DNA of 64,000 nucleotides, from IMG/VR virus record IMGVR_UViG_3300025674_000021, positions 37,707-101,706 of that record; one strand, written 5' to 3'. Shown in pieces: positions 6,608 through 51,327 of this stretch. The notes beneath the pieces are model-generated. The model had not been told where the DNA came from. It was given only the letters and a program-made list of their open reading frames with translations, and searched no databases. Position 1 is the first letter of the stretch. Every line of letters begins with the position of its first letter. Both the position numbers and the translations under genes were made by a program. The stretch comes from a virus.

Positions 6608-6808
6608 ATGGAAGAAAATGATTGGTCGGTTGATTGGACATTAGATGTTCATAAAGTCAGAGCACTTTATGATGTCATACACTATACCTGGGAAAATTGG
6701 CCAGGATATCCAGCAAGACCAAAAGAAGAACAGGAGTTTTTAATATCGACCAAATCTGAACTTTTTGCAATGTTAATGGATTACACTTTCAAGACGAAAA
6801 ATCAATGA
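6608..6808 (+). CDS. Hypothetical protein
   Basis: 66-aa ORF after TAAATA late-promoter-like site. Confidence 0.7.
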   Translation: MEENDWSVDWTLDVHKVRALYDVIHYTWENWPGYPARPKEEQEFLISTKSELFAMLMDYTFKTKNQ

Positions 6809-7590
6809 GAACGTTTAAAGAATTTCAATATATTTGCGAAAGATCCCTTTCTAAGTGTGAAAAAGACAGAAAAGAAGGTATTACCAAAGGCATGAAGAAG
6901 AATGCTTCTGACTTTAAAGATCGTTATGGTGGCAATTGGAAAGGAGTTATGTACGCTACTGCCACCAAGATGGCAAAGAAATCTAAGTGTAAGAAGGATG
7001 TTAAAGAATTTTGGAATCCATTAGCAAAACCAAAAGCAAAACCTGCTGTAAAGAAAAAAAATTCTACTGTTTTAGCATATAAAAACTATAAACCAGGAGT
7101 TCTTAACAAAGATACTGGAAAATTTACTCAACGTGATCATACACCAGATGAAGCAAAGAGATATGGTTGGAAACCAGTAAAGACAAGTTCTTATGGTCCC
7201 AGAGATACTACATCTCAGGCATATAATACTGGAAAAGATAAAGTTCAAAGAACTGCAGATGGAACTCCATTTACAGGGTCTACAAGAGGTGTAGCAGTTC
7301 CATATAAGTATAAAAAGAATGAAGTTCCTAAAGGTGTTTGGGCAGGAACACCATCAAGGAAATTTGGATCTGATGTGACATTTACAAATAAACCACTTGG
7401 AAATGCTCCAGGAAAAACTAAAACTGTTACCACTAAAGTAAGAGATACTGGAAACTTTGGTGCTGCTGGTGAAGTTAATAAAAGTACTAGTTTTGATTTG
7501 ATGAGGCAAACAGCAAGAGATTTATCTGGTAATCAAAAACTCACACCAACACAATGGGGAAAAAGAACCGTTTACGTGAGGTCTAACTAA
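6805..7590 (+). CDS. Basic putative head-internal protein with C-terminal RlpA-like double-psi beta-barrel
   Basis: N-terminus MRTFKEF..CE resembles T4 capsid-targeting sequence; C-terminus RTADGTPF..GVAV..FGSDVTF..VRDTG..FDLM..TARDL follows the RlpA/DPBB pattern. Confidence 0.6.
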   Translation: MRTFKEFQYICERSLSKCEKDRKEGITKGMKKNASDFKDRYGGNWKGVMYATATKMAKKSKCKKDVKEFWNPLAKPKAKPAVKKKNSTVLAYKNYKPGVLNKDTGKFTQRDHTPDEAKRYGWKPVKTSSYGPRDTTSQAYNTGKDKVQRTADGTPFTGSTRGVAVPYKYKKNEVPKGVWAGTPSRKFGSDVTFTNKPLGNAPGKTKTVTTKVRDTGNFGAAGEVNKSTSFDLMRQTARDLSGNQKLTPTQWGKRTVYVRSN

Positions 7591-8120
7591 TGGCAAATTG
7601 CAACTTTCCGAATCAGATAGATAATAGAAATTTTCTTTCTCCGATTGGGTTTAAATTTTCTTTATCAAAAGAACCAACGGTAGCATTCTTTGCTAATGCT
7701 GCCCAGATTCCAAACCTGAATCTCAAGGTAGAGACACAATCGACATATTTAAAGAACATCCCTGTACCCGGAGATGTTATGGAGTTTGGTGACTTCACAT
7801 TGAAGTTCATTGTCGATGAAGACATGGAAAACTACATGGCAGTACATAACTGGTTATATGGTCTAGGTTTTCCAGAATCAACCAAGCAGTATAAAGATCT
7901 AATCACAGATAAAAATGGTGTAGAAGACATCAAATACGAAAGAAGTGATGGAACTCTGTTTATTCTGAATAGTAACTATCAGACCTCCGCAAAGGTTAGA
8001 TTCACAGATATGTTCCCTTATTCACTCTCTTCTCTAGAGTTTGATGCCACTAACTCAGATCTAACATACTTTACAGCAACAGTATCTTTCAAGTATACTA
8101 TATACGATATCGAAGTTTAA
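7590..8120 (+). CDS. gp3: Tail tube terminator / tail completion protein
   Basis: NRNFLSPIGFKF and FIVDEDMENY..HNWL.GLG motifs; synteny. Confidence 0.9.
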   Translation: MANCNFPNQIDNRNFLSPIGFKFSLSKEPTVAFFANAAQIPNLNLKVETQSTYLKNIPVPGDVMEFGDFTLKFIVDEDMENYMAVHNWLYGLGFPESTKQYKDLITDKNGVEDIKYERSDGTLFILNSNYQTSAKVRFTDMFPYSLSSLEFDATNSDLTYFTATVSFKYTIYDIEV

Positions 8121-8123
8121 ATT

Positions 8124-8552
8124 ATGGACCTTGAAAAAATTCAATCTATGTGGGAAAGGGACTCTCAGATGGATCGGGATAACTTGCATGAAGAGTCATT
8201 GAGAATCCCTCAACTTCATTCAAAATATCATACTGTATACAATACGATTCAACTTCTCAAAGAAAATTCTAAAACAAAGTATAACAAGATTCGCCTAGAA
8301 CGCTATAACTACTACACAGGAAAGGCATCAGCAGAGGTCTACGCTGAAGAACCATTTCCGTATAAGATTCGTGAAAAGGACGCCATACAGAGGCATCTAG
8401 ACGCCGATGAGAGGTTGAATGAAGCAGAATTAAAGATTCGGTATTATGATGTTACTTTAAAGTACCTTGAAGACATTATTAAGTCAATTAATAATAGGAC
8501 TTATCAGATCAAAAACGCAATTGATTGGCATAATTTCCAGGCAGGTTTTTAA
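8124..8552 (+). CDS. uvsY: Recombination mediator UvsY
   Basis: IP.LHSKY, YYTGKA..EVY...PF, NRTYQIKNAIDW motifs. Confidence 0.92.
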   Translation: MDLEKIQSMWERDSQMDRDNLHEESLRIPQLHSKYHTVYNTIQLLKENSKTKYNKIRLERYNYYTGKASAEVYAEEPFPYKIREKDAIQRHLDADERLNEAELKIRYYDVTLKYLEDIIKSINNRTYQIKNAIDWHNFQAGF

Positions 8553-8576
8553 TAAATAAAAATAAACCTTCTGACG

Positions 8577-10265
8577 ATGATTACTTTTCAGCAGTTTGAT
8601 GAAAATGCTAGGGCAGCGTTAAAACTGCTGAAAGCGACTAATAGAATTGTTGGTGGGAAAAATGTTGGTTCTTTGGGAAGAGCAAGATATAAAGCTTTAT
8701 CAGTAGGACCAAGCAGAAGTATAGTTGGATTAGATCGTCAAAGAAGAAATGCATCTGATGCAGCAGCATTTAGAAAAGCAAACTTCCCTAGAACTCAAAC
8801 TGGAGGTACTAGACAAAGATTTAATACGACAGGTGAAAAGAATAAGTTTAGTAGAACTGTGGCAACTTCATACCCGTCACAATCTTCATATGCAAAAGAT
8901 ATGGTTCCTGCAAAACAATTGGAAAGTGGTGGAAGAATTCGTTCAACATCTGAACGTTCTCAATATCTGAAAAGATTGAAAAGACAAATGGGTGGGACAA
9001 GAACACGAAGAGGAGTTCATGCTGTTGATGTTCTCCCAAGAGGGGATTTCATGAAAAATGATCCAAAACAATTAATTACTAGAGGAAAAGAATATCATAA
9101 AGCAGTATCAGATATACCAAATGAAGTTAAAGGGTTTGGAGCAAAACGAGGAGATAAGATTGTAGGAACCGCATCGGAAGTTATGCCCGGTTCAACAAAT
9201 ATAGAGAGGGGAAAACAAAATCGCAGATCATTATATCGAAGAGTTCTTGGTGCAACAAAACAAGACCCTATTACAAGAAAACAAGTTGCTACTATTAAAG
9301 ATGAGTTTGAACATCTTGATGAAAATGCAAGAGCAGCATTAAAACTACTGAAATCTGCTAATAAAATTATTGGTGGTAGAAAAGTAGGCATAGTGCAGAA
9401 AGCATTGAAATCAAATCGTGCCGTATTGTCTAGGGCAGAAAGAGGTCAGAAATTTTCGCAGTCAGCAGATAAGATTACTTCTGACACACGTTCAATGAAT
9501 ATCACAAGATCAGCATCAAGAAAAGCAGGATTTAGTGGTGGTGCAAATATAAACAGAAAAGATTTTAAAACTTCAACAAAAGAATATACAACATATCCAG
9601 AAAAAGGTGGTTTAGATTATCATCCTCGACATAATACACAGGTTGATACAAATATCAGCACCGTTCCATCGGGTAGAGTTGCGGCAATTTCTGCAAATAC
9701 TACAGCAAAAAGACCAGTTCCAAAATCTGTTGGGCGTGGAAGACGAGTACCAAGAACAGAAAAATTAGTAGGGAAATTAAAAGAATATCGTCGTAGAGTT
9801 AGGAGGACTGGAGGAAATGAGAGAAATCCAGTTCATAAGATAGATTTTATTCAAAGAAGTGATGCAGATATATGGAAGAATGATTTGGACAAATATGCGT
9901 TCAAACGTGCTAGAAATTTTAGAAGAGCACAAGAAAATTTACCAAAAGATTTAAAAGCAGCAGGAGCAAAACCAAAAGATATTGTTCAAGGAATTCCCTC
10001 TGTTATGATGAGAGGAGAAACATCAAAAGGTGTTGGAAAACGTGCAGAACTTTATAAAAATCGTTATGGTCATCGCGTAACTGATTTAGATCCTACAAGA
10101 AGGACAACTGGTGTGATTGGCAGTGCTGGAGGAGAACTTCCACCAGGAAAGAAAATGAGAGGTAGAAAACCGCAGAGAAGAAGAACAAGAACAGGTCCTA
10201 CAGATCGATCTTCTGCACAGGCAATGATGGATAGAACCCAGAGAAACATTTTATCAGATCGATAA
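8577..10265 (+). CDS. Large, very basic hypothetical protein made of two tandem homologous domains
   Basis: DENARAALKLLK occurs twice, 240 aa apart; AATAAATA upstream; inserted between uvsY and uvsW. Confidence 0.8.
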   Translation: MITFQQFDENARAALKLLKATNRIVGGKNVGSLGRARYKALSVGPSRSIVGLDRQRRNASDAAAFRKANFPRTQTGGTRQRFNTTGEKNKFSRTVATSYPSQSSYAKDMVPAKQLESGGRIRSTSERSQYLKRLKRQMGGTRTRRGVHAVDVLPRGDFMKNDPKQLITRGKEYHKAVSDIPNEVKGFGAKRGDKIVGTASEVMPGSTNIERGKQNRRSLYRRVLGATKQDPITRKQVATIKDEFEHLDENARAALKLLKSANKIIGGRKVGIVQKALKSNRAVLSRAERGQKFSQSADKITSDTRSMNITRSASRKAGFSGGANINRKDFKTSTKEYTTYPEKGGLDYHPRHNTQVDTNISTVPSGRVAAISANTTAKRPVPKSVGRGRRVPRTEKLVGKLKEYRRRVRRTGGNERNPVHKIDFIQRSDADIWKNDLDKYAFKRARNFRRAQENLPKDLKAAGAKPKDIVQGIPSVMMRGETSKGVGKRAELYKNRYGHRVTDLDPTRRTTGVIGSAGGELPPGKKMRGRKPQRRRTRTGPTDRSSAQAMMDRTQRNILSDR

Positions 10266-10291
10266 ATATCTGTAGGTGAATCTTATGATTT

Positions 10292-11755: not shown

Positions 11756-11756
11756 T

Positions 11757-12191: not shown

Positions 12192-12222
12192 CTAGATCTG
12201 TCTCTTCAACGTTAACAAACAT

Positions 12223-12251
12223 ATTCTACTGAGTTTCGGACACTTTGTCAA
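12223..12251 (-). promoter_or_regulatory. Antisense sigma70-type promoter overlapping the gp55 promoter
   Basis: Minus strand reads TTGACA-17 nt-TAGAAT. Confidence 0.55.
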
Positions 12252-12273
12252 GCCCCCTAAAGTATGCTATAAT
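12245..12273 (+). promoter_or_regulatory. Sigma70-type promoter for gp55 operon
   Basis: TTGTCA-17 nt-TATAAT with extended -10 TG. Confidence 0.75.
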
Positions 12274-12303
12274 GAACATATACTACGCGGTTAAGTAAAT
12301 GTC

Positions 12304-13811: not shown

Positions 13812-13812
13812 T

Positions 13813-15909: not shown

Positions 15910-15945
15910 TGGTTCTAGATAACGCCCCAATAAGGAGCGTTTTTT

Positions 15946-15953
15946 TATAAATA
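15946..15953 (+). promoter_or_regulatory. T4-type late promoter
   Basis: TATAAATA immediately after a hairpin and T-run. Confidence 0.8.
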
Positions 15954-15980
15954 TTTGAAAATAGTGTTCAAATAAAACCA

Positions 15981-17753
15981 ATGTATAATAAGACCGAACG
16001 TGAGTTACTTGAGTTATACAAATCTGTTTACAACGAAGATACAGAGATAAAGGGTCTTCTGATTGAACTTTGTGAGAATTTTGAGTATGGTAATAGTTTA
16101 GAAGAGAGAGCAGAATTTGTTGGAGGTGTAATCAAAGATGAGTGCATCTTTGAATTCTTAGATCTGGTTTCAGATGTATTTGAGATTGAGATCAAAGAAA
16201 CCTTAACTGAAGGAATTGACCTGACAGAAAGAGCTGCATTAGTCAGAGGTCTTGTTAATGCACTTAGCAGAGGTGCTAGGAATAAAGCACTCAAGACAGC
16301 AGGAACTGCTGCAATGGGTAAGAGTGGTAACGTAATTAAAGGTGGTGCAGCATCTTCTAGCGTTAGAGCAGCAAGATCTGCAAGAGGTGCTACTACAGCA
16401 GCAACTAGAGCACCTGGTGGACCAGCAGCAGCGGCAAATGTTAAGAAAGCTGCTGATATTAGTGGAGCAACAAAACGACTTCCTGCTAAAGGTGGAAGTG
16501 GCGCAAATAGTGTTAATGCTATTGCTCAGCGTAATACTACAAAGACCAGGCAGGCAGTTAACCAAATGCAGACCTTCCTTGGTGGTCTTAAGAAGACCAT
16601 GAGGCAAAGTGCTGCTGCAGACAAGCTTGCTAAGGCAAAAGTAGGATCTACTGGTACTGGCGTTAAGGCAGCACTTCCTGGTGCAGCACCAAAAGCAGCA
16701 CTTCCTGGTGCAAAGGGAACTGTTACACCTTTGAAGACAACTGCACAAGTAGGTGGTCCTATTGGTCAAAGAACTATCAAGAAACCAGGTGCTGGACTTC
16801 CAAGACAGGCACCAAAACCTGAATGGGGCAAAGGTGGATCAGGTAATTCTGGAATTCCAAAACCACCAAGACAACCAGGTGGTGCAATGACTAAGAGACC
16901 ATCTAGCAGTATTGCAACTCCTGGTGTTCAGAAGGTCAAAGTCAAGGACATGGGTCCAACTGGAAGATCTGCTACTGACAAGGGAGGAAGAACTCTCAAA
17001 GGTGATGGTGTAATTGATGTAACTGCGAAGACAGTTTCTTCTAGAAAAACTACTGCACAACGTCTTAAGGATCTAGCAAGAGCTGTTAAAAATAATAAAG
17101 GTAAGGTTGCAGCTGGTGCTGCTATTGCTGGTGGAGCAGCACTTGGTTTAGCTACCGGAGATGGTAAGAAAACTGCTTCGGGAGATACCGCTCCTACTAC
17201 TCCATCTACAGCACCTGCATCTAAGGGTAAAACTGAAACTGGACTGGCGAATATTCCTCCTGCTGAGGGTCCAGTGAACAATCCAAATTATGGAAAACCT
17301 GGTTCCAAGGATAAGGCACCTGCACCTAAGGCACCTACTGGCGGAGGATCTAAAGCACCTACTGGCGGAGGATCTAAAGCACCTACTGGCGGAGGATCTA
17401 AAGCACCTACTGGCGGTGGTTCCAAGGCACCTGAAACCAAGAAGCCTGAATCTAAGGGAACTCCAAAGATGTCAAAAATGCAGCGGGATGCTGCAGAACT
17501 TCGTCAAATGAGAAAGAGATCTCAGGAGCGTATTATCGCTCAAGGTGGTACACCAGCAACTCCTCTTGTAAAAGATGATGTAGATGTATTTGAAATCATC
17601 AAGGGTTACCTGATCGATGAAGGTTATGCTGGTAGTGAAGAGGCAGCACTCATCATCATGACTAACATGAGTGGAGCATGGCAAGAGAAAATCATTGAGT
17701 CCTCCTGTGGAGGTGGTCACTCCAAGAAAAAGAAAAAGAAGAAGGGATATTGA
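15981..17753 (+). CDS. Modular low-complexity late protein (acidic N-terminus, basic Gly/Ala/Pro core, conserved acidic C-module)
   Basis: 590-aa ORF under late promoter; shares modules with ORFs at 48075 and 50095. Confidence 0.8.
   Translation: MYNKTERELLELYKSVYNEDTEIKGLLIELCENFEYGNSLEERAEFVGGVIKDECIFEFLDLVSDVFEIEIKETLTEGIDLTERAALVRGLVNALSRGARNKALKTAGTAAMGKSGNVIKGGAASSSVRAARSARGATTAATRAPGGPAAAANVKKAADISGATKRLPAKGGSGANSVNAIAQRNTTKTRQAVNQMQTFLGGLKKTMRQSAAADKLAKAKVGSTGTGVKAALPGAAPKAALPGAKGTVTPLKTTAQVGGPIGQRTIKKPGAGLPRQAPKPEWGKGGSGNSGIPKPPRQPGGAMTKRPSSSIATPGVQKVKVKDMGPTGRSATDKGGRTLKGDGVIDVTAKTVSSRKTTAQRLKDLARAVKNNKGKVAAGAAIAGGAALGLATGDGKKTASGDTAPTTPSTAPASKGKTETGLANIPPAEGPVNNPNYGKPGSKDKAPAPKAPTGGGSKAPTGGGSKAPTGGGSKAPTGGGSKAPETKKPESKGTPKMSKMQRDAAELRQMRKRSQERIIAQGGTPATPLVKDDVDVFEIIKGYLIDEGYAGSEEAALIIMTNMSGAWQEKIIESSCGGGHSKKKKKKKGY
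17328..17432 (+). repeat. In-frame 24-bp tandem repeat, about 4.3 copies (KAPTGGGS)
   Basis: AAAGCACCTACTGGCGGAGGATCT unit repeated. Confidence 0.95.
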
Positions 17754-17808
17754 TCCAGTTCTGAAACTGTCCACTAGCAGGTCTTAGGACCTGCTTTTTT
17801 TGTATGAT
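17754..17808 (+). promoter_or_regulatory. Composite element: AAACTGTCCAC motif, terminator hairpin, -10 box
   Basis: TCCAGTTCTGAAACTGTCCAC, AGCAGGTC-TTAG-GACCTGCT plus T-run, then TATGAT. Confidence 0.6.
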
Positions 17809-20027: not shown

Positions 20028-20264
20028 ATGAGCAGATTCGGAGATTTAGTAGCGGGAAAGAAGGAAGCACCCGCACCTGCACCCGCACCGGTTGCTGAAC
20101 CAGCACCAGAAACCGCCCCAGAGGCAGCAGAAGAAACAATTCCTGCAGTGATTGAGGAGATGCCTTCTCCAGAAGTTCCTGCCCCTTTAAACAATCCTGT
20201 CTTTGAGATTCCATCTGCTCCAGTTCCCCGATCGACTAGAAGAAGAAACCGTCTCCGCAAATGA
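20028..20264 (+). CDS. Small Pro/Ala/Glu-rich late protein (78 aa)
   Basis: MSRFGDLVAGKKEAPAPAP...RRRNRLRK; preceded by AATAAATA. Confidence 0.7.
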   Translation: MSRFGDLVAGKKEAPAPAPAPVAEPAPETAPEAAEETIPAVIEEMPSPEVPAPLNNPVFEIPSAPVPRSTRRRNRLRK

Positions 20265-31984: not shown

Positions 31985-32540
31985 AATTAAAAATGTAGTA
32001 CCACAACATCTCTTTGATTCTCTTCAAGATGAATTTGATCATAGTGGATGGTCTCTGGGAAATAAATCGTATAATCAAAAATGGCAAAGAGATGGTTTTA
32101 CCCTGGCAGATTTGCCAGCAAATAGACCTATAATATTTAATATCGCTAGTTACATTAAATTAAAGATTCAAAGATACATAAAGCATGATTTGGCATTTAT
32201 TAGAGCTCATGTGAATGGGTATGTCTATGGTCAAACTGGAGGTTTTCACCAAGATTTTGTTGAGCATAGAACTTATACTTTTATAATGTTTACTCATGAA
32301 AACTGGAACATGCAGTGGGGAGGAGAGTTTGTATGCTATGATGAATCTGCACAGGATTACAAGTTCTTCCCAGCATTGCCTAATACAGGAGTTCTGATAC
32401 CTTCTGATTGGGATCATTACGGAGCTGCTCCAAATGAATATGCTAATTGTATGAGATCAACCATTGGATTCAGTTTTTGTGACCCAAGTATAAAAGAGTA
32501 CATGTCTGAAGTGTGTGCTCAAGTAAAATACTTCACCTGA
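31965..32540 (+). CDS. 2OG-Fe(II) oxygenase inserted in the split gp43
   Basis: FHQD...W...WGGE....H.G.AP....R pattern. Confidence 0.85.
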   Translation: MLSKPIKIKNVVPQHLFDSLQDEFDHSGWSLGNKSYNQKWQRDGFTLADLPANRPIIFNIASYIKLKIQRYIKHDLAFIRAHVNGYVYGQTGGFHQDFVEHRTYTFIMFTHENWNMQWGGEFVCYDESAQDYKFFPALPNTGVLIPSDWDHYGAAPNEYANCMRSTIGFSFCDPSIKEYMSEVCAQVKYFT

Positions 32541-32542
32541 TT

Positions 32543-38369: not shown

Positions 38370-38425
38370 TTATTATAAATATTAGAATAAAGGTTACTGG
38401 TAAATTGTAATACCATATTTTAGGC

Positions 38426-39664
38426 ATGAGATCATTTCTAGAGTTCGTATCAGAAGCAACTTCTGCTTCAGTTCAAGCAAAGCGTCTTGCACTGAAAGGA
38501 GATGGTCATGGTTCATATTACAATAGAGCTACTGGTGAGTTTGAAGCAAAAACTGAGAATGGAGAACTTAAGTTCTATAATAAGAGACAAGTTCGTGGAA
38601 AAGATCCAGCACAAACAGAGTTTGAAAAGAGAATTCCTTTAGGTTCATATCAGAGAGAAGAGGCAGAAGTTCCTCAAGAAATGCCACAAGAGGAACCAAT
38701 GTCTATGGCACCTCCAGTTCCTAAGAAGAAAGGAACTCTGAATATTGTATTTGGAAGATTCAACCCTCCAACCGCAGGACACCTCTTAGCAATGGATGTT
38801 GCTGCTTCTGCAATGATGGAAGATCCAACATCAGAATACACAATTGTTCCTTCTAGACAGCAGGATAAGAATAAAAATCCTCTTGATCCTGATACAAAGA
38901 TTCACTTTATGAGGAGGATGTTTCCTCAGCATAGTGAGAGAATTGTAAATGATAATAATTTAGAAACTATTTTTGATGTACTCAAAAGAGCACACAATGA
39001 TGGTTACAGCAGTGTAAGAATTATTTCAGGATCTAACAGAGTTAACGAGTTTGAAAAACTTGCTAATAATTACAATGGACAACTCTATGAGTTTGAAGCT
39101 ATAGAAGTTGTTCCTTCTGGAGAGATTGATCCAGATGGTAAGGGTATGGAATCTATCTCTGCATCAAGATTACGACTCGCAGCAGCAGAAGGAGATTTCC
39201 TTACATTCAGAGAAGGTCTTGGACCTGGTATCAAAAAGAGAGATGTTATCGATCTCTTCTATGCAACCCGTATGGGAATGGGTGTTGAGGAGATGGAAGA
39301 AGAATATAATACCTGGGAGATTGCTCCTAAGTTTGATCAGAAAACCTTAAGAGAAAACTATATTAGTAAAAAGATATTTAAGGTAGGTGACTTAGTAGAA
39401 AACTTGAATACAGGACTGAGTGGTAAGATCATTCGTAGAGGAACTAACTACTTGATTTGTGTTACAGAAGACGACATTATGTTCAAATCTTGGATTAGAG
39501 ATGTTCAAGAATCATATACTGAAAAGCATAATGATTCATTGACCAGAGAACCTGGCAAACCAAATACACTGGTTGGAACTTCTGGATACCTTAAGTATGC
39601 AATGAAAATGTCCCCTGGATGCTTAGTGGACAAAAAAATACTAAATAACAGTAGGAAAAAGTAA
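38426..39664 (+). CDS. Cytidylyltransferase-family (HxGH) nucleotidyltransferase, late-expressed
   Basis: FGRFNPPTAGH, KNPL, ISAS.LR motifs; TATAAATA at 38374; N-terminus MRSFLEFVSE. Confidence 0.85.
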   Translation: MRSFLEFVSEATSASVQAKRLALKGDGHGSYYNRATGEFEAKTENGELKFYNKRQVRGKDPAQTEFEKRIPLGSYQREEAEVPQEMPQEEPMSMAPPVPKKKGTLNIVFGRFNPPTAGHLLAMDVAASAMMEDPTSEYTIVPSRQQDKNKNPLDPDTKIHFMRRMFPQHSERIVNDNNLETIFDVLKRAHNDGYSSVRIISGSNRVNEFEKLANNYNGQLYEFEAIEVVPSGEIDPDGKGMESISASRLRLAAAEGDFLTFREGLGPGIKKRDVIDLFYATRMGMGVEEMEEEYNTWEIAPKFDQKTLRENYISKKIFKVGDLVENLNTGLSGKIIRRGTNYLICVTEDDIMFKSWIRDVQESYTEKHNDSLTREPGKPNTLVGTSGYLKYAMKMSPGCLVDKKILNNSRKK

Positions 39665-39680
39665 ATTTTAATTTGTACTC

Positions 39681-40808
39681 ATGAAAAAGCATATTGCTGA
39701 GGATCTTCCTGCAAGAAAGCATCCACAAGCTGCTATGTCTGCAGGTTCGGGAAATAGAGAAGGTGATAAGGGTCCTAATGACTCTATGGGAAATGAGCAG
39801 AAGAAAATTTCCCAGGCAGTTTATGATATTAGATATCGTGCAAGAAGAGAAGACATTCCTCTTCGCCAAGCATATAGCGAGTATATCGGCAATAGTGGCA
39901 TGAGTGAAATGGCGAAGAAAGTCGTCAGAGAAAAGTTATTTGGTAAAGAAGGTGGTGGTGAAAGTGCAGCACCTACTGAGAAGAAAGAAGATTATAATAT
40001 TACAGATACTGCAACCAGTGCAGTTGCGTCTGCAATGTATAAGGTATTCGTAGAAGGAACCAAGGATGATATCCTGGATGAGGCATACCTTGAAGAGTTG
40101 AAGAGCAAAGCAGCAATGAAAACTGCCGAGAAGGCAAAGTATAAGGTAGAAGTTCACGACAAGAGAACTGATAAGAGATATCACAGATATGCAGATCGTG
40201 AGAAGATTGCTCAGTTGAGAGCAAAAGGTCTGGGTGTTGAGATGACCGAGTATGGAACTCCATACGAAGGTGAGAGAGAAAAGGGTGAGCAAACTGCTGC
40301 TGCCCTTAGCAAAGGTAAGGCAAACGGCAAGAGAGATAACAATTTTGCCAATAATGCACCTCCTTATGACAAGGCAACCAAGGCAGATAGAATTGCTGGT
40401 GCTAAGGGAAAGGATCAGATGGGCGGTAAGAATGTCAAAGAGTCATTATCCGTAACCAGCAGAGAACCTAACTCCAATAAGCTTGATGTTATGAAGGGTG
40501 TTAACAATATTAAGATAAATCCTGAGATTGAAATGCCTAACAAGCATAATAGAAGATTGATGTCTAACTCTCACCAAGTTGAAGGGGAAGTCATCATTGA
40601 GAATTCTTATGACAAGTTCCTTATGAAAGTAAAGGGACCTAAGGTAACTACCGAAAAAGCATGTGGTAAATGTGGTAAAACTCCATGCTGCTGTGAAGGT
40701 AAATCGGAAGATATGCGTGATAGATATGCAAAAAGAGAAGTAATGAAGAACAAGATTCGTTCTATGGGAATTAAGAATCCTATCATTATGTCAACTGAAG
40801 AGGGTTGA
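39681..40808 (+). CDS. Hypothetical late (probable virion) protein
   Basis: 375-aa ORF; QAVYDIRYRARRE motif; SHQVEGEVIIE spacer-type motif. Confidence 0.75.
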   Translation: MKKHIAEDLPARKHPQAAMSAGSGNREGDKGPNDSMGNEQKKISQAVYDIRYRARREDIPLRQAYSEYIGNSGMSEMAKKVVREKLFGKEGGGESAAPTEKKEDYNITDTATSAVASAMYKVFVEGTKDDILDEAYLEELKSKAAMKTAEKAKYKVEVHDKRTDKRYHRYADREKIAQLRAKGLGVEMTEYGTPYEGEREKGEQTAAALSKGKANGKRDNNFANNAPPYDKATKADRIAGAKGKDQMGGKNVKESLSVTSREPNSNKLDVMKGVNNIKINPEIEMPNKHNRRLMSNSHQVEGEVIIENSYDKFLMKVKGPKVTTEKACGKCGKTPCCCEGKSEDMRDRYAKREVMKNKIRSMGIKNPIIMSTEEG

Positions 40809-40842: not shown

Positions 40843-41040
40843 ATGTTAGCATCATGGTTACTCCCAATCGCACAAAAGATTATTGTTGATGCGGTTGCCA
40901 AAATTCCTGATAATGAAGAACTGGGTGAGAAGCTAATCGAAATCTGTATTGTTATTCTTGAAAAAGCAGTTAGATTGACCAAAACAGATATGGACGACAG
41001 GCTTCTTTCTAAAGTAAAAGAAGCAGTGGTAGCACGCTGA
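40843..41040 (+). CDS. Small hypothetical protein
   Basis: 65-aa amphipathic ORF ending TKTDMDD.L...V. Confidence 0.7.
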   Translation: MLASWLLPIAQKIIVDAVAKIPDNEELGEKLIEICIVILEKAVRLTKTDMDDRLLSKVKEAVVAR

Positions 41041-41109
41041 TCAAAAGGGTACGTTAAAGTGCCCTTTTTTTATAAATATCAATATAAAGAAATTATAGGG
41101 AAAGGTAAA

Positions 41110-41631
41110 ATGTCTCTTTGGGGCACAGCAGATGCTGTTAGTTTAACTGGTTCGGGTACTGTAACCGTAGATCTTTCCGGTAAAACCGTTACCGGTAATG
41201 GTGCTACGTTCACTAACGTTGCTGAAGGCGATGTCATCTCTATCGGTGTTGGTAACACTTATGGTGAGGCAGTAGTTGCAGGAGTCACTTCCGAAACATT
41301 ACTCACAATCAAATCAACAGATCATCTTCTCGATTCTGTGGATGGAGTTGCTGGTCTTGCATATGCAGTATCACAGAAACCTTCATACACTCTTCATGAT
41401 ACCCATTATGGATCTGATCGTATCTTCGGTGTAGACAACACTGAGGTAACCGTTGCTAGAACTACTAAGTACGATGTAGCACACGGTGGTTGGGTTGGAA
41501 TCACAACCTACAACGATGGTGAAGGTAATCTAAGAGTTAAGACAGAAGTTCTGGTTGCAATGGGCAAAGATGCCGATGGCAACGGTGGTATCGATGGTGA
41601 TGCTGAGAATACTGTATTCCCTAATACCTGA
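41110..41631 (+). CDS. Probable virion structural protein
   Basis: Start MSLWG after TATAAATA at 41071; beta-rich; HGGWVG..Y....G.LRVK.EVLVAM. Confidence 0.7.
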   Translation: MSLWGTADAVSLTGSGTVTVDLSGKTVTGNGATFTNVAEGDVISIGVGNTYGEAVVAGVTSETLLTIKSTDHLLDSVDGVAGLAYAVSQKPSYTLHDTHYGSDRIFGVDNTEVTVARTTKYDVAHGGWVGITTYNDGEGNLRVKTEVLVAMGKDADGNGGIDGDAENTVFPNT

Positions 41632-47057: not shown

Positions 47058-47187
47058 AAGAAATTGTAAATGTAACTGTTTAAAAACTGAAGATGTTTTA
47101 GAATCCTACCGAGAGGCAGCACTATCAGATGCCTACATGTTCGGTGACTATGATGGATACGAAGCATATAAGCAAGAGGGTCAATGA
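46897..47187 (+). CDS. Possible small ORF overlapping the nrdB 3' end (true start uncertain)
   Basis: Non-overlapping part (CKRNCKCNCLKTEDVLESYREAALSDAYMFGDYDGY) fills the gap to the terminator. Confidence 0.35.
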   Translation: MTFLQRTIHSLGQSIGSLLKVFKWHPKKQKSNPTSLEESNKTLPKILLQGSPCKRNCKCNCLKTEDVLESYREAALSDAYMFGDYDGYEAYKQEGQ

Positions 47188-47207
47188 CCCTCTTTTTTTT
47201 ATAAATA
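47174..47207 (+). terminator. Terminator fused to a late promoter
   Basis: AAGAGGGTCA-A-TGACCCTCTT plus T-run, then TATAAATA (47200-47207). Confidence 0.8.
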
Positions 47208-47228
47208 CTTGAAAAAGTAATTGTAGAA

Positions 47229-48032
47229 ATGAAGACGTATAAGCAGTTTATATTCGATTCTTATGATGCTCTGAAAGATCTTGAGAATCTTCAAGAGGTA
47301 GTTCCTCTATTGATTCCTGCTGCCATTGGTGCTGCTAAATTAGGTGGCGCAGCACTTACTGCATATTCTGCTTATAGTGCAGCAAAGAATTTAAAGAAAG
47401 GGAAGTATGGTGATGCTGCATTGGATGCGCTGGGCGTTATTCCTGGTGGAGGTTTAGCATTTAAGGGAGCAAGAGCACTTGGTGCAGGTAAAAATCTTGC
47501 AAGAGGTGCTTCTGCAGCAACCAGTGTTGCAAGATGGTCTTCGCCTGCAAGAAATAGACCTATTGAAAAGGGTGCCGAAATGGCAATGAATGCAGTGCTT
47601 GGAACTGGTGCTACACAGGCAAAGAATTCATCTACACCCACTAATTCTAATACTTCTGCTACACCCGCTAATTCTAATACTTCTGCTGCCAATTCTAATA
47701 CTTCTGCTGCCAATTCTAATACTTCTCAATCAAATCAATCAACTGAAAAGAAAAAAGAATTTGATCCCAAAAAATTACCTGGTGCTGGACTTGCAATCAG
47801 AACTGATTTAAGTTCTCCTACCATGATAACTAAATCTCAAGCAGAAGCAGAGCAAGGTATTGAAAACGATAAACCTGCATCTACGAATGTAGATACTTCT
47901 GCTACACAAGCAGATGCACAGGCAAAAGAAAGACAAAAAGCAGAAGCGAAAAAGAAAGCAGAACAAGCATTGAAGAAAAAGAATCAAGAACTCAATGATA
48001 AATTGAGACCTGACTTCGCTATGGCAGGTTAA
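47229..48032 (+). CDS. Putative head-internal protein with capsid-targeting-like N-terminus and hydrophobic Gly/Ala hairpin
   Basis: MKTYKQFI...ENLQE followed by VVPLLIPAAIGAAKLGGAAL; late promoter. Confidence 0.7.
   Translation: MKTYKQFIFDSYDALKDLENLQEVVPLLIPAAIGAAKLGGAALTAYSAYSAAKNLKKGKYGDAALDALGVIPGGGLAFKGARALGAGKNLARGASAATSVARWSSPARNRPIEKGAEMAMNAVLGTGATQAKNSSTPTNSNTSATPANSNTSAANSNTSAANSNTSQSNQSTEKKKEFDPKKLPGAGLAIRTDLSSPTMITKSQAEAEQGIENDKPASTNVDTSATQADAQAKERQKAEAKKKAEQALKKKNQELNDKLRPDFAMAG
47643..47726 (+). repeat. In-frame tandem repeat, 4 copies (NSNTS[A])
   Basis: AATTCTAATACTTCT(GCT) repeated at 21-27 nt spacing. Confidence 0.9.
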
Positions 48033-48074
48033 TTTTATAAATAAAAATATCAAGAAATTATAACAATAAAACCC

Positions 48075-50009
48075 ATGGGACGCCTTACTGGATCTGACGC
48101 TAAAAAACTGTATGAACTTTATGATTCAATCTATGAGAAGAAAAAAGATTGCGTCGATAAAGATAAGAAAGGAATGCACAACTGTGCTAAGAAGGTCTGC
48201 CATGAAGAGTATGGTGAAGGAGAAACCATCTTCAGTCAGCACGCTGCACCTGATGAGAATGGATTCGTATCTCACTACAACGTCCAGTTCGAGCACGGCA
48301 TTGTAGAGAATGTATCCGTAGAGGATCTGGAAGTCCTTACCATGGTTGAGCACTCAGAGCACGTAGAGCACGACGGAGAAGTCGTTGCTGAAGATGCTGA
48401 AGAAGTTGAAGAGGGTGCTGCAAATATTCTTAGAGCAGGTCTGGCTGCTGGCACAGCACTTGCTGGTGGTGTGCTTGCTAAAAAAGCATCTGACGTTGCT
48501 GGAAAAATTAAAGAGAAGCAGCAGAAAAAATCTGATATGATCAAGAAAACTCTTGGTAACTCTCACGAACTTGAGGGAGAGAATCTCCAAGAATATGATG
48601 TGCAAGGTGCAGTAAAGGGAGCACTTGATAAGGGTGCTAAGTTTATGAAAACAAATCCTGTCGGCAAGGCAGTTGGTGCTGTTCTAAAACCTGTAGGAAA
48701 GGGAGCAGGAACTGTCACTAAGGCACAGCAAGATGCAAAGATCAAGATGAATAATAAAGAAGAAATGACTAGAATTACTGGTTTTGATGTCGCTAATTTA
48801 ATGGAAGCTTATTCCGCAGTTTATGCTCCTCAAGAACTTACTGAAGAGCAGGTGTGGGAAGAAGTTGAAGTTTGGGTAAATTCACTTATCGAAGAAGGTT
48901 ATGACCTCAGTGAGTATACTTGGGAAGATATGTATGAAGCATACATTGAGGAACAGGGAGGAAGACTGCCTGGGCCAGCAAGAAGAGCGGCTCAACAAGC
49001 AGCAAGAGAAGCACAAAACGTCAAAAGAGCACAAGCACCAACTCTTCCTACCAAACCTACTAGAGGTGGTTCTTTTAGATACCAACCAGTTGCAGCAGAC
49101 AAGGGTAGAGGAGGAGATGCTGCATATAGAGCAGGTGGTGGAGATGCAGCAGCAAAAAGTGGTCTAACCAGACAACAGATTCAGCAAAAGGGAATGACAG
49201 CAACGAGAGCAGCATCAGTAACTTCAACTGGAGTTTCTGGACTTTCTGCTGCTGATCGAGCTGCATATTCTGCTGGTGGTGGAAATGCCAAGGCCATGCA
49301 AGGAATGGGACAGAGTACCGCTCAAGTGATCGCACAAGGTAAAGCAAATCTTGCTAGAATGGATCAGGGCAAACCAGCACCTGCTGGAGCAAGACCAACT
49401 TCTGGTCCATCATCAACTAATCCAAAATCTGGATTATCTGCATTTCCTGCCGCTAGACCTGCTGCTGCTGCTGCTCCTGCCGCTAGACCTGCTACTCCTG
49501 CTGCTACTCCTGCTGCCGCTAGACCTGCTTCCACAACTTCCACACCAACGCCTCAAAAAAACTTTAACCCTTTGATGCAAAAAACTTTTGGTTATCAAAC
49601 TGGACAACAACCAACTAAACCAAGTGGTCCAAAAGAACCAAATGTAACTGTAATGAAAAGTGGAAGACTTGCAACGGCACTTTCTGGACCCATGAAAAGG
49701 GTTAAAGAAGAATATGATGATTATGATGTTGTATTATATCATTTACTTGATGAAGGTTATGCTGAGACCGAAGAAGCAGCACTTGCAATCATGGCAAACA
49801 TGACCGAAGAGTGGAGAAATGAGATTGTTGAGCAATCTTCTACTCGATCCATGGCACATCAAGTTACTGATGCTCTCCCTTGGAACCGTAATACGAAGTA
49901 CACCACCCAAGGCAAACTCCGTAAACCTGGCGAAAATGTTCATGGTCAACAAACTGGTAGAAAACCTGCACCGACAAGTTCCATGACTTCTGACGGTAAA
50001 CCTAGGTAG
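48075..50009 (+). CDS. Large modular late polyprotein-like protein
   Basis: TATAAATA at 48036; alternating acidic and basic blocks; duplicated R(L/I)TGxD..LxExY..(I/V)Y module; DEGYAETEEAAL.IM.NM module. Confidence 0.8.
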   Translation: MGRLTGSDAKKLYELYDSIYEKKKDCVDKDKKGMHNCAKKVCHEEYGEGETIFSQHAAPDENGFVSHYNVQFEHGIVENVSVEDLEVLTMVEHSEHVEHDGEVVAEDAEEVEEGAANILRAGLAAGTALAGGVLAKKASDVAGKIKEKQQKKSDMIKKTLGNSHELEGENLQEYDVQGAVKGALDKGAKFMKTNPVGKAVGAVLKPVGKGAGTVTKAQQDAKIKMNNKEEMTRITGFDVANLMEAYSAVYAPQELTEEQVWEEVEVWVNSLIEEGYDLSEYTWEDMYEAYIEEQGGRLPGPARRAAQQAAREAQNVKRAQAPTLPTKPTRGGSFRYQPVAADKGRGGDAAYRAGGGDAAAKSGLTRQQIQQKGMTATRAASVTSTGVSGLSAADRAAYSAGGGNAKAMQGMGQSTAQVIAQGKANLARMDQGKPAPAGARPTSGPSSTNPKSGLSAFPAARPAAAAAPAARPATPAATPAAARPASTTSTPTPQKNFNPLMQKTFGYQTGQQPTKPSGPKEPNVTVMKSGRLATALSGPMKRVKEEYDDYDVVLYHLLDEGYAETEEAALAIMANMTEEWRNEIVEQSSTRSMAHQVTDALPWNRNTKYTTQGKLRKPGENVHGQQTGRKPAPTSSMTSDGKPR

Positions 50010-50071
50010 TCCACTTTTCAAACTGTCCACTGGGAGGTCTTCGGACCTCCTTTTTTTATGGAATATAAATA
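50009..50071 (+). promoter_or_regulatory. AAACTGTCCAC motif, cUUCGg terminator, then late promoter
   Basis: GTCCACTTTTCAAACTGTCCAC; GGAGGTC-TTCG-GACCTCC plus T-run; TATAAATA at 50064. Confidence 0.7.
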
Positions 50072-50094
50072 TTTGATATGTTAGAAGTATAAAA

Positions 50095-51327
50095 ATGTCG
50101 TACCTTAGTTTTGATGAGATTTCTGATAGATATAATCAACTAGCACAAGTAGATCTTACAGAAGAAGATCTTGCTATTGCTGAAGGAATTTATTTAAATA
50201 TTGTCAACACTCTGGTAGAAAAGAGTCATACTGCTACCGGTATTCTTAAATTTCTTGAAACTCAAGTTAATGATGAAAATATTCTTGAGTTTTTTACTGA
50301 AGAACCTATTGAAATTTCAGAAGAGTGGGGAGATAACTTAGCAAAATGGGAAAAAGATCTTCTCTTGTTTAATGTTGAGGGACATAAACTTGAATTAATG
50401 GAGAGTGCTCTTAAAGGAATTGCAAAAACTTTACTTAGGTCACTTAAGAGAAGTCCTCTATCAAGTGCTAAGAGAGTAAGGGCAGCGCATAGATCTAGAA
50501 GATTGGGTAAACCACAACCAATGGGAAAGGCATCTTCTGATGCAGCACTTTCGGGTGGAAAAACTGGTGCTTATAGAAGTACTGGTTCTGGAACTAAAAC
50601 ATCTATCAAAAGCACTGCTGACGATAAAGGTGTACCAACTACAGGAACTGCATTGAAACAAACTCCTGGAGCAGCAGCGGCGTCACAGAATAGATCACAA
50701 AGAGCAGATTACAGAGTCAAGAAGAAAGCAGATCAGGCAAGAGTTGCAGCAGATAAAGCAGCAGGTAAGGATCCTTTCAGAATTAAAAAGAGAGATGTTG
50801 CAGCAGTTGGAGCAGGTGTAGCACTTGCTGCTGCTGGTGCTAATTCCCTTAAAAATAAAGGAAGTTCTTCAAGCACAACTCCATCCCCATCCCCATCCCC
50901 ATCTTCTAAAGAACCACCTAAACCTACTGCTCCTAAGGGTCCTAGTCAGGAAGATATTGAGAAGGAAAAGAGAGATGAAAGATTCAAAAAAGTACGTGCG
51001 TACTGTTATCAGAATCCTAGAAAATGTAGATCCATGGCTGACGGGGATTATGATAAAGAATCTATGAGAAAAGAACTGAACTTTGATAAACCTAAAAAAT
51101 CCACCACCAAAGAGTGGATGGAAAACTATCCAGAACTCGCTCAAACCATTAACGAACAAAAAGAGGTAACCGAAATGAACAATCAAACTCATGACGCTTA
51201 TGATATTATCTTAGATTACTTACTTGAGAATGGTCATGCAGAGACCATGGACGAAGCAAATTATGTAATGCTCGAAATGGATGAAGAACATCTTCAAAAG
51301 ATTGTTCAACTTTCATCAGAGTCCTGA
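50095..51327 (+). CDS. Modular late protein (same architecture as 15981..17753)
   Basis: Acidic N-terminus, basic core, Gly/Ala helix, PS linker, C-terminal DAYDIILDYLLENGHAET module. Confidence 0.8.
   Translation: MSYLSFDEISDRYNQLAQVDLTEEDLAIAEGIYLNIVNTLVEKSHTATGILKFLETQVNDENILEFFTEEPIEISEEWGDNLAKWEKDLLLFNVEGHKLELMESALKGIAKTLLRSLKRSPLSSAKRVRAAHRSRRLGKPQPMGKASSDAALSGGKTGAYRSTGSGTKTSIKSTADDKGVPTTGTALKQTPGAAAASQNRSQRADYRVKKKADQARVAADKAAGKDPFRIKKRDVAAVGAGVALAAAGANSLKNKGSSSSTTPSPSPSPSSKEPPKPTAPKGPSQEDIEKEKRDERFKKVRAYCYQNPRKCRSMADGDYDKESMRKELNFDKPKKSTTKEWMENYPELAQTINEQKEVTEMNNQTHDAYDIILDYLLENGHAETMDEANYVMLEMDEEHLQKIVQLSSES

What the first reader, a model, noticed from the sequence alone, without database searches (positions are those of the whole stretch)
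6805..51327. Dispersed family of late cassettes encoding modular, gp21-cleavable head-internal 'cargo' polyproteins
Seen: eight otherwise unassigned ORFs (6805, 8577, 15981, 38426, 39681, 47229, 48075, 50095) are scattered among core genes, each with a TAAATA/TATAAATA site upstream (for 6805 via the preceding small ORF), often next to a terminator. They reuse a small parts list. (a) N-termini MRTFKEF..CE, MITFQQFDE, MRSFLEFVSE, MKTYKQFI. (b) Module LxExYxx(V/I)Y at the 15981 and 48075 N-termini and again inside 48075. (c) A ~40-aa acidic module D(V/A/D)(F/Y)(D/E)(I/V)(I/V)..(Y/H)L(I/L)(D/E).G(Y/H)A.(S/T).E.A..(I/V)M..M near 17574, 49710 and 51190. (d) Spacer SH(E/Q)(L/V)EGE.(L/I).E in 48075 and 39681. 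Charge flips abruptly from acidic to basic or Gly/Ala-hydrophobic right after (L/I/V/F)xE: DLTE|RAAL, ELME|SALK, NLQE|VVPL, NLQE|YDVQ, HLDE|NARA, EIVE|QSST. Established: T4 internal proteins carry the CTS MKTYQEFIAE, and gp21 cuts after Glu in (I/L)xE; gp23 here has the matching FLSE|NG. Inference: this is a mix-and-match system in which acidic modules route variable basic cargo peptides into the prohead, gp21 releases them, and they are injected with the DNA.
Basis: partly seen in the sequence, partly recalled or inferred. Interest (0 to 1): 0.8.

Follow-up and report, generated by a model that had tools for sequence, protein, structure and literature searches.

The report
Head-targeted late proteins of a cyanophage
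A T4-like virus of cyanobacteria carries late genes that start with the same short address tag T4 uses to load proteins into its head, plus a large uncharacterised family of acidic-capped, basic proteins that probably go the same way, though no direct evidence places that family in virions.

Summary
All eight ORFs, the motifs and the charge flips are in the sequence.

The eight are not one family:
- Class A (6805, 8577, 38426, 47229) starts with M-x-[TSN]-[FY]-x-x-F. This occurs at 4 of 118 N-termini (0.10 expected, P 4e-6) and resembles T4's capsid targeting sequence MKTYQEFIAE.
- Class B (15981, 48075, 50095) has an N-terminal LxE(A)YxxVY helix and 'EGY' modules around basic disordered cores.
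- 39681 is the cytidylyltransferase's downstream partner.

Evidence for packaging of class A:
- In 58 orthologues of 38426, positions 4, 7, 8 and 10 stay fixed. These are T4's targeting and processing positions.
- In phage S-CREM2, all five ORFs with the tag are in the published virion proteome (P 6e-4).
- The cytidylyltransferase was found in S-SM1, S-SZBM1 and S-CREM2 virions.

Evidence on class B:
- The EGY module matches 3,666 protein clusters with no Pfam family and no assigned function.
- It occurs essentially only on T4-like cyanophage contigs.
- 47 of 53 genes have ATAAATA 26-42 nt upstream.
- No virion data exist for this class.

Corrections: 38426 is an enzyme, 6805 carries a double-psi beta-barrel, and 39681 has no promoter of its own.

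Other first-stage notes on this genome made similar points.

Verdict: partly supported; a new variant of the T4 internal-protein system.

The parts
3230..3880 (+). gp21 prohead protease (context)
   Evidence: Syntenic with the S-SRM01 head maturation protease. N-terminus is MKLITE|E.
3924..5066 (+). gp22 scaffold (context). TATAAATA at 3883.
   Evidence: Acidic. It has 15 [LI]xE sites against 7.5 expected from composition, P 0.004.
5121..6536 (+). gp23 major capsid protein. Predicted maturation site FLSE|NG at residue 54.
   Evidence: 82.5% nucleotide identity to S-SRM01 gp23. Sequence.
6556..6597 (+). Terminator hairpin (6556-6579), then an AATAAATA late-promoter-like site
6608..6808 (+). 66-aa ORF overlapping the start of 6805; probably co-transcribed with it
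6805..7590 (+). Class A. CTS MRTFKEFQYICE, a long helix, then a double-psi beta-barrel domain (residues 88-260). Absent from the matching position in S-SRM01.
8551..8558 (+). AATAAATA, 25 nt before 8577
8577..10265 (+). Class A. CTS-like MITFQQFDE, then two homologous, very basic units. Each unit starts NARAALKLLK right after x-D-E; the internal junction is HLDE|N at residue 249.
15946..15953 (+). TATAAATA late promoter of 15981
15981..17753 (+). Class B. Module b at the N-terminus and an acidic cap (1-83) ending DLTE. Then a basic disordered core with a Gly/Ala hydrophobic stretch (374-394), module c (535-573) and a poly-Lys tail.
17776..17795 (+). Terminator after 15981
38374..38381 (+). TATAAATA late promoter of 38426-39681
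38426..39664 (+). Class A. CTS MRSFLEFVSE|A, a conserved 45-aa leader, a cytidylyltransferase/NMNAT-like domain and a small C-terminal domain.
39681..40808 (+). Conserved downstream partner of the cytidylyltransferase. Carries module d (SHQVEGEVIIE). No CTS and no promoter of its own.
47174..47207 (+). Terminator (47174-47194), then TATAAATA (47200-47207)
47229..48032 (+). Class A. CTS MKTYKQFIFD (Asp at position 10). The next site is NLQE|V at residue 23. Then a Gly/Ala hydrophobic stretch and low-complexity sequence.
48036..48043 (+). TATAAATA late promoter of 48075
48075..50009 (+). Class B, composite. Module b plus a Cys-rich domain found next to cytidylyltransferases elsewhere; a hydrophobic stretch plus module d, shared with contig gene 30719-32554. 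From residue 231 it is a full copy of an S-SRM01 gp269-type protein (module b, c2, basic core, module c).
50032..50071 (+). Terminator (50032-50051), then TATAAATA (50064-50071)
50095..51327 (+). Class B. Acidic cap (1-103) ending ELME, a basic core with a Gly/Ala stretch (234-253), and module c at the C-terminus.
51354..51375 (+). Terminator after 50095

Best explanation
The window comes from a T4-like cyanomyovirus. Its closest isolate is the freshwater Synechococcus phage S-SRM01. The eight ORFs are late genes, and I read them as proteins built into the prohead core. They fall into two classes.

Class A (6805, 8577, 38426, 47229) carries a T4-type capsid targeting sequence.
- Inferred from T4: the aromatic residues at positions 4 and 7 dock the protein on the gp22 scaffolding core.
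- Inferred: gp21 then cuts after the Glu of the first [ILV]-x-E. That is position 10 in 38426, 12 in 6805, and 23 in 47229. In 8577 the sites are position 9, where the motif is the atypical F-D-E, and the internal L-D-E junction at 249.
- Inferred: the mature protein stays in the head with the DNA and leaves with it at infection.
- The cargo is a cytidylyltransferase/NMNAT-like enzyme, a double-psi beta-barrel domain, a duplicated arginine/lysine-rich protein, and a Gly/Ala-hydrophobic protein.

Class B (15981, 48075, 50095) belongs to a large uncharacterised family (PHROG 3708 and relatives).
- Shown: the N-terminal LxE(A)YxxVY helix and the 'EGY' helix-loop-helix modules are acidic and rich in [LI]xE. 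They bracket basic disordered cores.
- Inferred by analogy with T4 Alt, which is trimmed at both ends, and with gp22: the acidic caps hold the protein in the core, mask the basic stretch, and are then cut away. A DNA-binding basic protein is left in the head.

39681 is co-transcribed with 38426 and probably travels with it.

Shown overall: late promoters, motifs, conservation, module sharing, and virion presence of homologues of class A. Inferred: docking, cleavage, retention and injection. For class B, even the location in the head is inferred.
For: CTS.
- It sits at 4 of 118 N-termini against 0.10 expected, P 4e-6.
- T4's tag MKTYQEFIAE is attested. T4 genetics place targeting at residues 4 and 7, and processing at 8 and 10. 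Asp at 10 blocks cutting but not targeting (PMC9026906).
- In 58 metagenomic orthologues of 38426 the start reads MK.F.QF[IVL].EATSA. Exactly positions 4, 7, 8 and 10 are fixed. P-SSM2 has MKSFSQFLTE.
- Many homologues of 6805 start MK[TS][FY]..FC.[DE]AN[IL]QE.

Virion proteomes.
- In S-CREM2, the five ORFs that start M-[KQ]-x-[FL]-x-x-F-[LF]-x-E are all among the 52 of 221 ORFs found in virions. They are SAM hydrolase, ORF13, the kinase, ORF136 and the cytidylyltransferase. Hypergeometric P 6e-4.
- The cytidylyltransferase was detected in S-SM1 virions with 25 peptide counts.
- It was also detected in S-SZBM1, together with its neighbour _139, an acidic-then-basic Ala/Gly/Lys-rich protein.

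Late expression.
- TATAAATA is enriched, strand-specific and correctly spaced.
- Of 53 unique module-c genes from IMG/VR, 47 have ATAAATA 26-42 nt upstream.

Host range of the family. 79 of 80 such loci carry T4-like cyanophage neighbours. All 9 isolate records with a match are Synechococcus phages; those whose records I opened are Kyanoviridae.

Cleavage plausibility.
- [LI]xE is enriched beyond composition in the acidic caps: 8 against 3.9, and 11 against 3.9. gp22 shows the same, 15 against 7.5.
- Where the trailing I-x-E is present, about half of the aligned module-c copies end in I-[VL]-E, followed by Gly/Ala/Lys/Arg-rich sequence.
- T4 Alt is cut at ITE-6 and LTE-619 (PMC5694885).
- The two halves of 8577 are homologous (score 190 against 44 +/- 8 for shuffles). 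Both begin NARAALKLLK right after x-D-E.
Against: - No cleavage or packaging data exist for this phage.
- No module-b/c protein appears in any virion proteome I could read. S-SCSM2R ORF205 is not named among its 23 virion proteins. S-CRM01 g291/g292 carry no virion note, and the S-CRM01 paper was not available.
- Class B proteins never carry the CTS (0 of 53). Their link to the head therefore rests on analogy and on modules shared with virion proteins.
- [LI]xE is a weak motif. Its absence from the basic cores is what their composition predicts.
- Three of the four CTS copies depart from T4 at the processing positions.
- The S-CREM2 test used a motif refined after looking at that proteome. The virion preparations may also carry abundant late proteins as contaminants.
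- The beta-barrel of 6805 also resembles a cyanophage baseplate component (8kea).
Confidence: 0.6

Rival explanations
1. Class B proteins (15981, 48075, 50095) are inside the head but carry no effector cargo. They are accessory scaffold or DNA-condensing counter-ion proteins. The acidic helices are gp22-like core elements. The basic cores neutralise DNA charge, which may be useful in low-salt fresh water.
For: - The cores are low-complexity Lys/Arg/Ala/Gly/Pro sequence with no folded domain.
- The linkers of the family vary freely while the caps are conserved.
- [LI]xE is enriched as in gp22.
- The isolates that carry the module are mostly freshwater or estuarine.
Against: - No habitat statistics were computed.
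- S-SCSM2R is marine.
- Several members also carry folded or hydrophobic segments.
- This rival differs from the main reading only in what the retained part does.
Confidence: 0.25
2. Class B proteins are late cytoplasmic disordered proteins that never enter the virion. They might be assembly chaperones, condensate formers, or factors acting on the host nucleoid or envelope late in infection.
For: - No virion proteome lists a module-b/c protein.
- They lack the CTS.
- The fold of modules b + c2 is a plain three-helix unit with no match in the PDB.
Against: - Tryptic proteomics would miss Lys/Arg-rich cores and trimmed caps.
- They share modules with virion-detected proteins. Contig gene 30719-32554 links 48075 to S-CREM2 ORF137/160.
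- S-SZBM1_139, with the same acidic-then-basic build, is in virions.
- They are restricted to phages with a gp21-type protease.
Confidence: 0.2
3. 6805 is a tail or baseplate-associated cell-wall-binding or cell-wall-cutting protein, not a head-internal protein.
For: Its C-terminal domain is a double-psi beta-barrel. Matches include the RlpA-like PA4485, a cyanophage A-1(L) baseplate protein, a diffocin baseplate protein, expansins and MltA.
Against: - Many of its homologues start with a CTS-type N-terminus, as do virion-packaged enzymes in S-CREM2.
- It lies directly after gp23.
Confidence: 0.15
4. The shared 'modules' are chance or compositional resemblances among unrelated hypothetical proteins, and there is no system.
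For: - Module d is only 11 residues long.
- Some pairwise similarities among the low-complexity cores are weak and were scored without composition correction.
Against: - CTS enrichment has P 4e-6.
- The module-c profile finds 1,782 clusters at E <= 1e-10, most with 2-4 copies.
- Module b lies near the N-terminus in nearly all family members.
Confidence: 0.03

Closest known systems
T4 internal proteins IPI, IPII, IPIII and their capsid targeting sequence (Mullaney and Black 1996; reviewed in PMC9026906 and PMC3012670)
   Same: - An N-terminal tag of about 10 residues with aromatic residues at 4 and 7, a hydrophobic residue at 8 and Glu at 10.
- Unrelated cargo behind a shared tag.
- Late genes scattered outside the head gene cluster.
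- A gp21/gp22/gp23 prohead system in the same genome.
   Different: - The cargo here is larger and includes a nucleotidyltransferase and a beta-barrel domain.
- Three of the four tags place the Glu site a few residues further on.
- The hosts are cyanobacteria.
- No anti-restriction role is indicated.
- Packaging is inferred from homologues in other phages.
T4 Alt (packaged ADP-ribosyltransferase)
   Same: An enzyme packaged in the head and trimmed by gp21 at both ends, at ITE-6 and LTE-619. This matches the two-capped build of 15981 and 50095 and the DLTE site.
   Different: No sequence similarity.
Cyanophage virion-associated cytidylyltransferase / NMNAT-like protein (T4-GC190; Sullivan et al. 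2010, PMC3037559; PMC9602691; PMC9146016; PMC10665884)
   Same: 38426 is an orthologue (phrog_395 E 7e-89, PF01467). The protein is a cyanophage core gene found repeatedly in virions.
   Different: The papers I could read do not say how the enzyme gets into the virion. The CTS reading supplies a mechanism.
PHROG 3708 / 27516 / 22522 / 9737 (unknown function)
   Same: 15981, 48075 and 50095 carry the modules that define these groups.
   Different: No function is recorded. The late promoters, the fixed N-terminal position of module b and the restriction to T4-like cyanophages are worked out here.
Ejection or inner-body proteins of giant phages (phiKZ, SPN3US), processed by a gp21-like protease
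   Same: Many head-internal proteins with propeptides removed after Glu in a short motif (PMC5694885).
   Different: Different motif (S/A-x-E), different phage group, and no sequence relation.

Membership tests
T4-type CTS-bearing internal head proteins | N-terminal tag with aromatic or hydrophobic residues at positions 4 and 7 (targeting) | tested here: met
   F/Y at 4 and F at 7 in 6805, 8577, 38426 and 47229. Both positions are invariant in orthologues.
T4-type CTS-bearing internal head proteins | Hydrophobic residue at 8 and Glu at 10, giving a gp21 site (I/L-x-E) | tested here: inconclusive
   Met by 38426 (V8, E10). 6805 has ICE at 10-12. 8577 has FDE at 7-9. 47229 has I8 and D10, with LQE at 21-23.
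T4-type CTS-bearing internal head proteins | The genome encodes the gp21 protease, gp22 scaffold and gp23 with a matching maturation site | tested here: met
   Window 3230-6536. gp23 has FLSE|NG at residue 54.
T4-type CTS-bearing internal head proteins | Late transcription | tested here: met
   By promoter motif only: TATAAATA or AATAAATA lies 18-52 nt upstream. No expression data.
T4-type CTS-bearing internal head proteins | Physically inside the capsid, tag removed, ejected with the DNA | not testable with these tools
   Indirect only: homologues and tag-bearing proteins are in the virion proteomes of S-CREM2, S-SM1 and S-SZBM1.
Cytidylyltransferase-like (PF01467) | Profile match above Pfam's curated cut-off | tested here: met
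   38426: 32 bits against a cut-off of 21, residues 108-215. phrog_395 E 7e-89.
RlpA-like / barwin-like double-psi beta-barrel | Double-psi beta-barrel fold | tested here: met
   6805 model has pLDDT 77.6. Foldseek to 4avr gives E 2e-5 and TM 0.75 on the target, followed by kiwellin, expansin and MltA. No Pfam hit. Catalytic residues were not examined.
PHROG 3708-type module b/c proteins | N-terminal LxE(A)YxxVY helix plus one or more L-[LIV]-[DE]-E-G-[YH] helix-loop-helix modules | tested here: met
   15981, 48075 and 50095. 50095 has a weaker N-terminal helix.
PeSL-type promoter/stem-loop shuffling cassettes of T4-like phages (PMC4122927) | A conserved composite promoter plus stem-loop flanking mobile genes | not tested
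   Terminator-then-late-promoter units flank 15981, 47229-48075 and 50095. Their sequences were not compared with one another or with PeSLs.

The most novel reading that the evidence does not exclude
Modules b and c form a second, unrecognised prohead-loading and propeptide system. It is specific to T4-like cyanophages and comprises thousands of gene clusters. It packs large amounts of basic, disordered, histone-like protein, sometimes with membrane-active Gly/Ala segments, into the head. gp21 trims off the acidic caps.
Probability: 0.35. Interest if true: 0.75.

Novelty: new variant of a known kind. Interest (0 to 1): 0.62.

Why it matters
Virion proteomes of T4-like cyanophages keep finding 'non-structural' enzymes: cytidylyltransferase/NMNAT, a kinase, a SAM hydrolase and a nuclease. 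None of the papers I could read explains how these proteins get in.

A conserved T4-type address tag would supply the mechanism. It would also:
- allow the injected protein set of any cyanomyovirus, including uncultured ones, to be predicted from sequence;
- offer a handle for loading foreign proteins into cyanophage heads.

The b/c-module family is large, has no assigned function, and is driven by late promoters almost everywhere. Placing it in the head would assign a role to a sizeable block of aquatic viral 'dark matter'. It would also raise the question of what cyanophages deliver into the cell alongside their DNA.

Tried and rejected
- Near-identity search of the 47-51.5 kb region in the phage collection: no match.
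- Pfam at E <= 5 on the unassigned ORFs and acidic caps: only sub-threshold noise.
- ESM Atlas on 50095: unnamed viral clusters only.
- Foldseek on the module b + c2 model: no match.
- Search with the leader of 38426: returned only orthologous cytidylyltransferases, so it gave no view of other cargo.
- Virion evidence for module-c proteins:
  - S-CRM01 g291/g292 carry no virion note.
  - S-SCSM2R ORF205 is not mentioned in its paper.
  - The S-SCSM1 supplement holds no virion list.
  - The S-CRM01 paper (PMC4185292) is not held.
Context came from the search for related loci instead.
- Depletion of [LI]xE in the basic cores: not significant, and explained by composition.
- 39681 against S-SZBM1_139: no sequence similarity at E < 0.05, only the same position in the gene order.
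- The idea that all eight ORFs are one homologous family: rejected.


Full report
**What the window is.** It is the last 64 kb of a 101.7-kb contig from a T4-like cyanomyovirus.
- gp23 is 82.5% identical in DNA to that of the freshwater Synechococcus phage S-SRM01.
- The gene order gp20, gp21, gp22, gp23, gp3, uvsY, uvsW, gp55, gp47, gp46 matches that phage.
- Relative to S-SRM01, 6805 and 8577 are extra genes.
- 38426 and 39681 correspond to S-SRM01 gp258 and gp259. The three genes after nrdB (47229, 48075, 50095) sit where gp269-271 do.

**The observation.**
- The N-terminal pattern M-x-[TSN]-[FY]-x-x-F begins exactly four of the 118 genes called on the contig, and no other real ORF. From its internal frequency, 0.10 such N-termini are expected, P 4e-6.
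They switch back to acidic at module c.
- The two halves of 8577 are homologous along their whole length (local score 190; shuffles 44 +/- 8). Each begins NARAALKLLK immediately after x-D-E.

**Late transcription.**
- TATAAATA occurs ten times, always on the coding strand. 3.3 are expected on both strands, and no shuffle reaches ten.
- Nine of the ten lie 29-52 nt before a start codon. Five of those serve 15981, 38426, 47229, 48075 and 50095. The others serve the gp67-like gene, gp22, a structural gene at 41110, and the ORF at 63109.
- 8577 and the small ORF ahead of 6805 have AATAAATA. This fits the NATAAATA consensus reported for S-PM2 (PMC2984593).
- 39681 has no site of its own and starts 17 nt after 38426.
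- Strong hairpin-plus-T terminators lie at 6556, 17776, 47174, 50032 and 51354. So 15981, the 47229-48075 pair and 50095 are self-contained late units inside replication-gene territory.

**The N-terminal tag.**
- T4's capsid targeting sequence is MKTYQEFIAE.
- T4 genetics place targeting at residues 4 and 7, and processing at 8 and 10. Asp at position 10 blocks cutting but not packaging (PMC9026906).
- Of the 58 metagenomic orthologues of 38426 that were retrieved, nearly all start MK.F.QF[IVL].EATSA. Positions 3, 5 and 9 vary, while 4, 7, 8 and 10 do not.
- The marine Prochlorococcus phage P-SSM2 has MKSFSQFLTE. S-SRM01 has MKNFHQFITE.
- Many homologues of 6805 start MK[TS][FY]..FC.[DE]AN[IL]QE. 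That is Asp at position 10, with an I-Q-E site five residues on. 47229 has the same layout (D10, then LQE-23).

**Published virion proteomes.**
- I took the S-CREM2 proteome table (PMC10665884) and the genome.
- The strict pattern finds two S-CREM2 ORFs, 136 and 154. Both are in the virion list.
- The N-termini of the 'non-structural' virion proteins then showed the same tag on the SAM hydrolase (MKDFDSFLEE), ORF13 (MKDLHSFLTE) and the kinase (VKRFDAFLTE).
- With the pattern M-[KQ]-x-[FL]-x-x-F-[LF]-x-E, five ORFs qualify genome-wide. All five are among the 52 of 221 ORFs detected. Hypergeometric P is 6e-4.
- The looser pattern was chosen after looking at the data, so this P value is optimistic.
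- The cytidylyltransferase is a cyanophage core gene. It was detected in S-SM1 virions with 25 peptide counts.
- It was also detected in S-SZBM1, together with its neighbour _139. PMC9602691 remarks on how often such enzymes turn up in virions.
- No paper in the held library links a capsid targeting sequence to cyanophages.

**The cargo of class A.**
- 38426 is a cytidylyltransferase/NMNAT-like enzyme.
- 6805, modelled with 40 homologues (pLDDT 77.6), has a long helix followed by a double-psi beta-barrel. The best match is the RlpA-like PA4485 (E 2e-5, TM 0.75). Next come a cyanophage A-1(L) baseplate protein, kiwellin, expansins and MltA. This confirms, at the level of fold, a lead from another first-stage note.
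- 8577 is a duplicated Arg/Lys-rich protein (pI 11.3).
- 47229 has a Gly/Ala-rich hydrophobic stretch right after its predicted site.
- So 'variable basic peptides' describes only part of the cargo.

**Class B.**
- A profile of module c, built from the four window copies, finds 3,666 cluster representatives at E <= 1e-3 and 1,782 at E <= 1e-10. Most have two to four copies.
- These proteins have no Pfam family. They fall in PHROGs 3708, 27516, 22522 and 9737, all of unknown function.
- Their build is constant: module b within the first 20 residues, often a c2 variant (WVNSL[LI]EEGYDLSEYTWE), a variable basic linker, then c1 copies.
- About half of the aligned module-c copies show the trailing I-x-E. 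These copies end W[RK].SI[VL]E, and the sequence then turns Gly/Ala/Lys/Arg-rich.
- A model of modules b + c2 gives three helices (pLDDT 70) with no match in the PDB.
- In IMG/VR, 296 loci encode the module. Of 53 unique genes with a complete 5' end, 47 have ATAAATA 26-42 nt upstream and 41 have TATAAATA. None starts with the CTS.
- 79 of 80 loci carry T4-like cyanophage genes. The neighbours are mostly nrdA/nrdB and the ORF at 51632. A second slot lies near gp46.
- All nine matching isolate records are Synechococcus phages: S-SRM01, S-CRM01, B3/B23, DSL-LC02/03 and S-SCSM2R.

**Links between the classes.**
- 48075 shares residues 107-253 with contig gene 30719-32554 (E 2e-10).
- Other parts of that gene match S-CREM2 ORF160, and via S-SRM01 gp206 also ORF137. 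Both are virion-detected.
- The N-terminal Cys-rich domain of 48075 lies next to, or fused with, cytidylyltransferases in other cyanophages.
- S-SZBM1_139 is found in virions. It has an acidic half followed by a basic Ala/Gly/Lys-rich half, like 15981 and 50095.
- These links are suggestive, not proof.

**Cleavage.**
- gp23 has FLSE|NG where T4 (from memory) has FLTE|AE. gp21 starts MKLITE|E.
- [LI]xE is enriched beyond composition in the acidic caps: 15981, 8 against 3.9, P 0.011; 48075 residues 1-293, 11 against 3.9, P 0.001. gp22 shows the same, 15 against 7.5, P 0.004.
- The lack of sites in the basic cores is expected from their composition.
- T4 Alt is trimmed at ITE-6 and LTE-619 (PMC5694885). 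This is a precedent for two removable ends.

**Verdict.**
- Class A is probably a set of packaged head proteins (about 0.75).
- Class B is a large, late, cyanophage-specific family whose place in the head is plausible but untested (about 0.45).
- The single 'parts list' is better described as two targeting devices that do not mix, plus shared internal pieces.

Noticed in passing
Contig G000:C1 30719-32554 (5,152-6,987 bases before the window start): A 611-aa basic protein between gp16 and gp17. It shares a hydrophobic stretch plus an EGENxQE piece with 48075. Other pieces match S-CREM2 ORF160, which is virion-detected. The orthologue is S-SRM01 gp206.
   Followed up: partly
Window 38468-38590 (residues 15-55 of 38426); L004 (S-CREM2 ORF12, ORF14): A second conserved leader piece follows the tag: A(K/E)RLGL..GDGHG.W....TGEF.AKT. 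It recurs behind the N-termini of the S-CREM2 virion nuclease (ORF12) and, more loosely by eye, of the kinase (ORF14). The ORF12 tag-like LRFASFMAE sits 17 residues in, so the annotated start may be too far upstream.
   Followed up: partly
Homologues of 6805 (P0226-P0262 group); L011 33252-35375 (S-SZBM1_194): About a third of the 6805 homologues carry the N-terminus MPAVSKSQQRLFG instead of the tag. Two longer homologues are annotated PF11450. S-SZBM1_194 starts MPAKSVKQQRFFGMV. It holds a c2 module and an internal FITYREFIAE, almost T4's tag.
   Followed up: no
Window 55116-55709: If read from its GTG start, this ORF begins VKRLNTFLLE, which is tag-like. The sequence that follows is hydrophobic and odd. 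The ATG start at 55302 may be the real one.
   Followed up: no
Window 20028-20264: A 78-aa Pro/Ala/Glu-rich ORF with a basic tail and ATAAATA 30 nt upstream. It may be another small late protein.
   Followed up: no
Window 40843-41631: A conserved small ORF, 55% identical to S-SZBM1_137. It is followed by a TATAAATA-driven 173-aa gene weakly similar to the virion structural protein S-SZBM1_136. With 38426 and 39681 this forms a conserved late cluster inside the replication genes.
   Followed up: partly
Window 15981-17753, 47229-48032, 48075-50009, 50095-51327: Each has one Gly/Ala-rich hydrophobic stretch of about 20 residues, of glycine-zipper type (for example GKVAAGAAIAGGAALGLATGD). Only 6 of the 150 top family members have one, so it is not a family trait.
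   Followed up: partly
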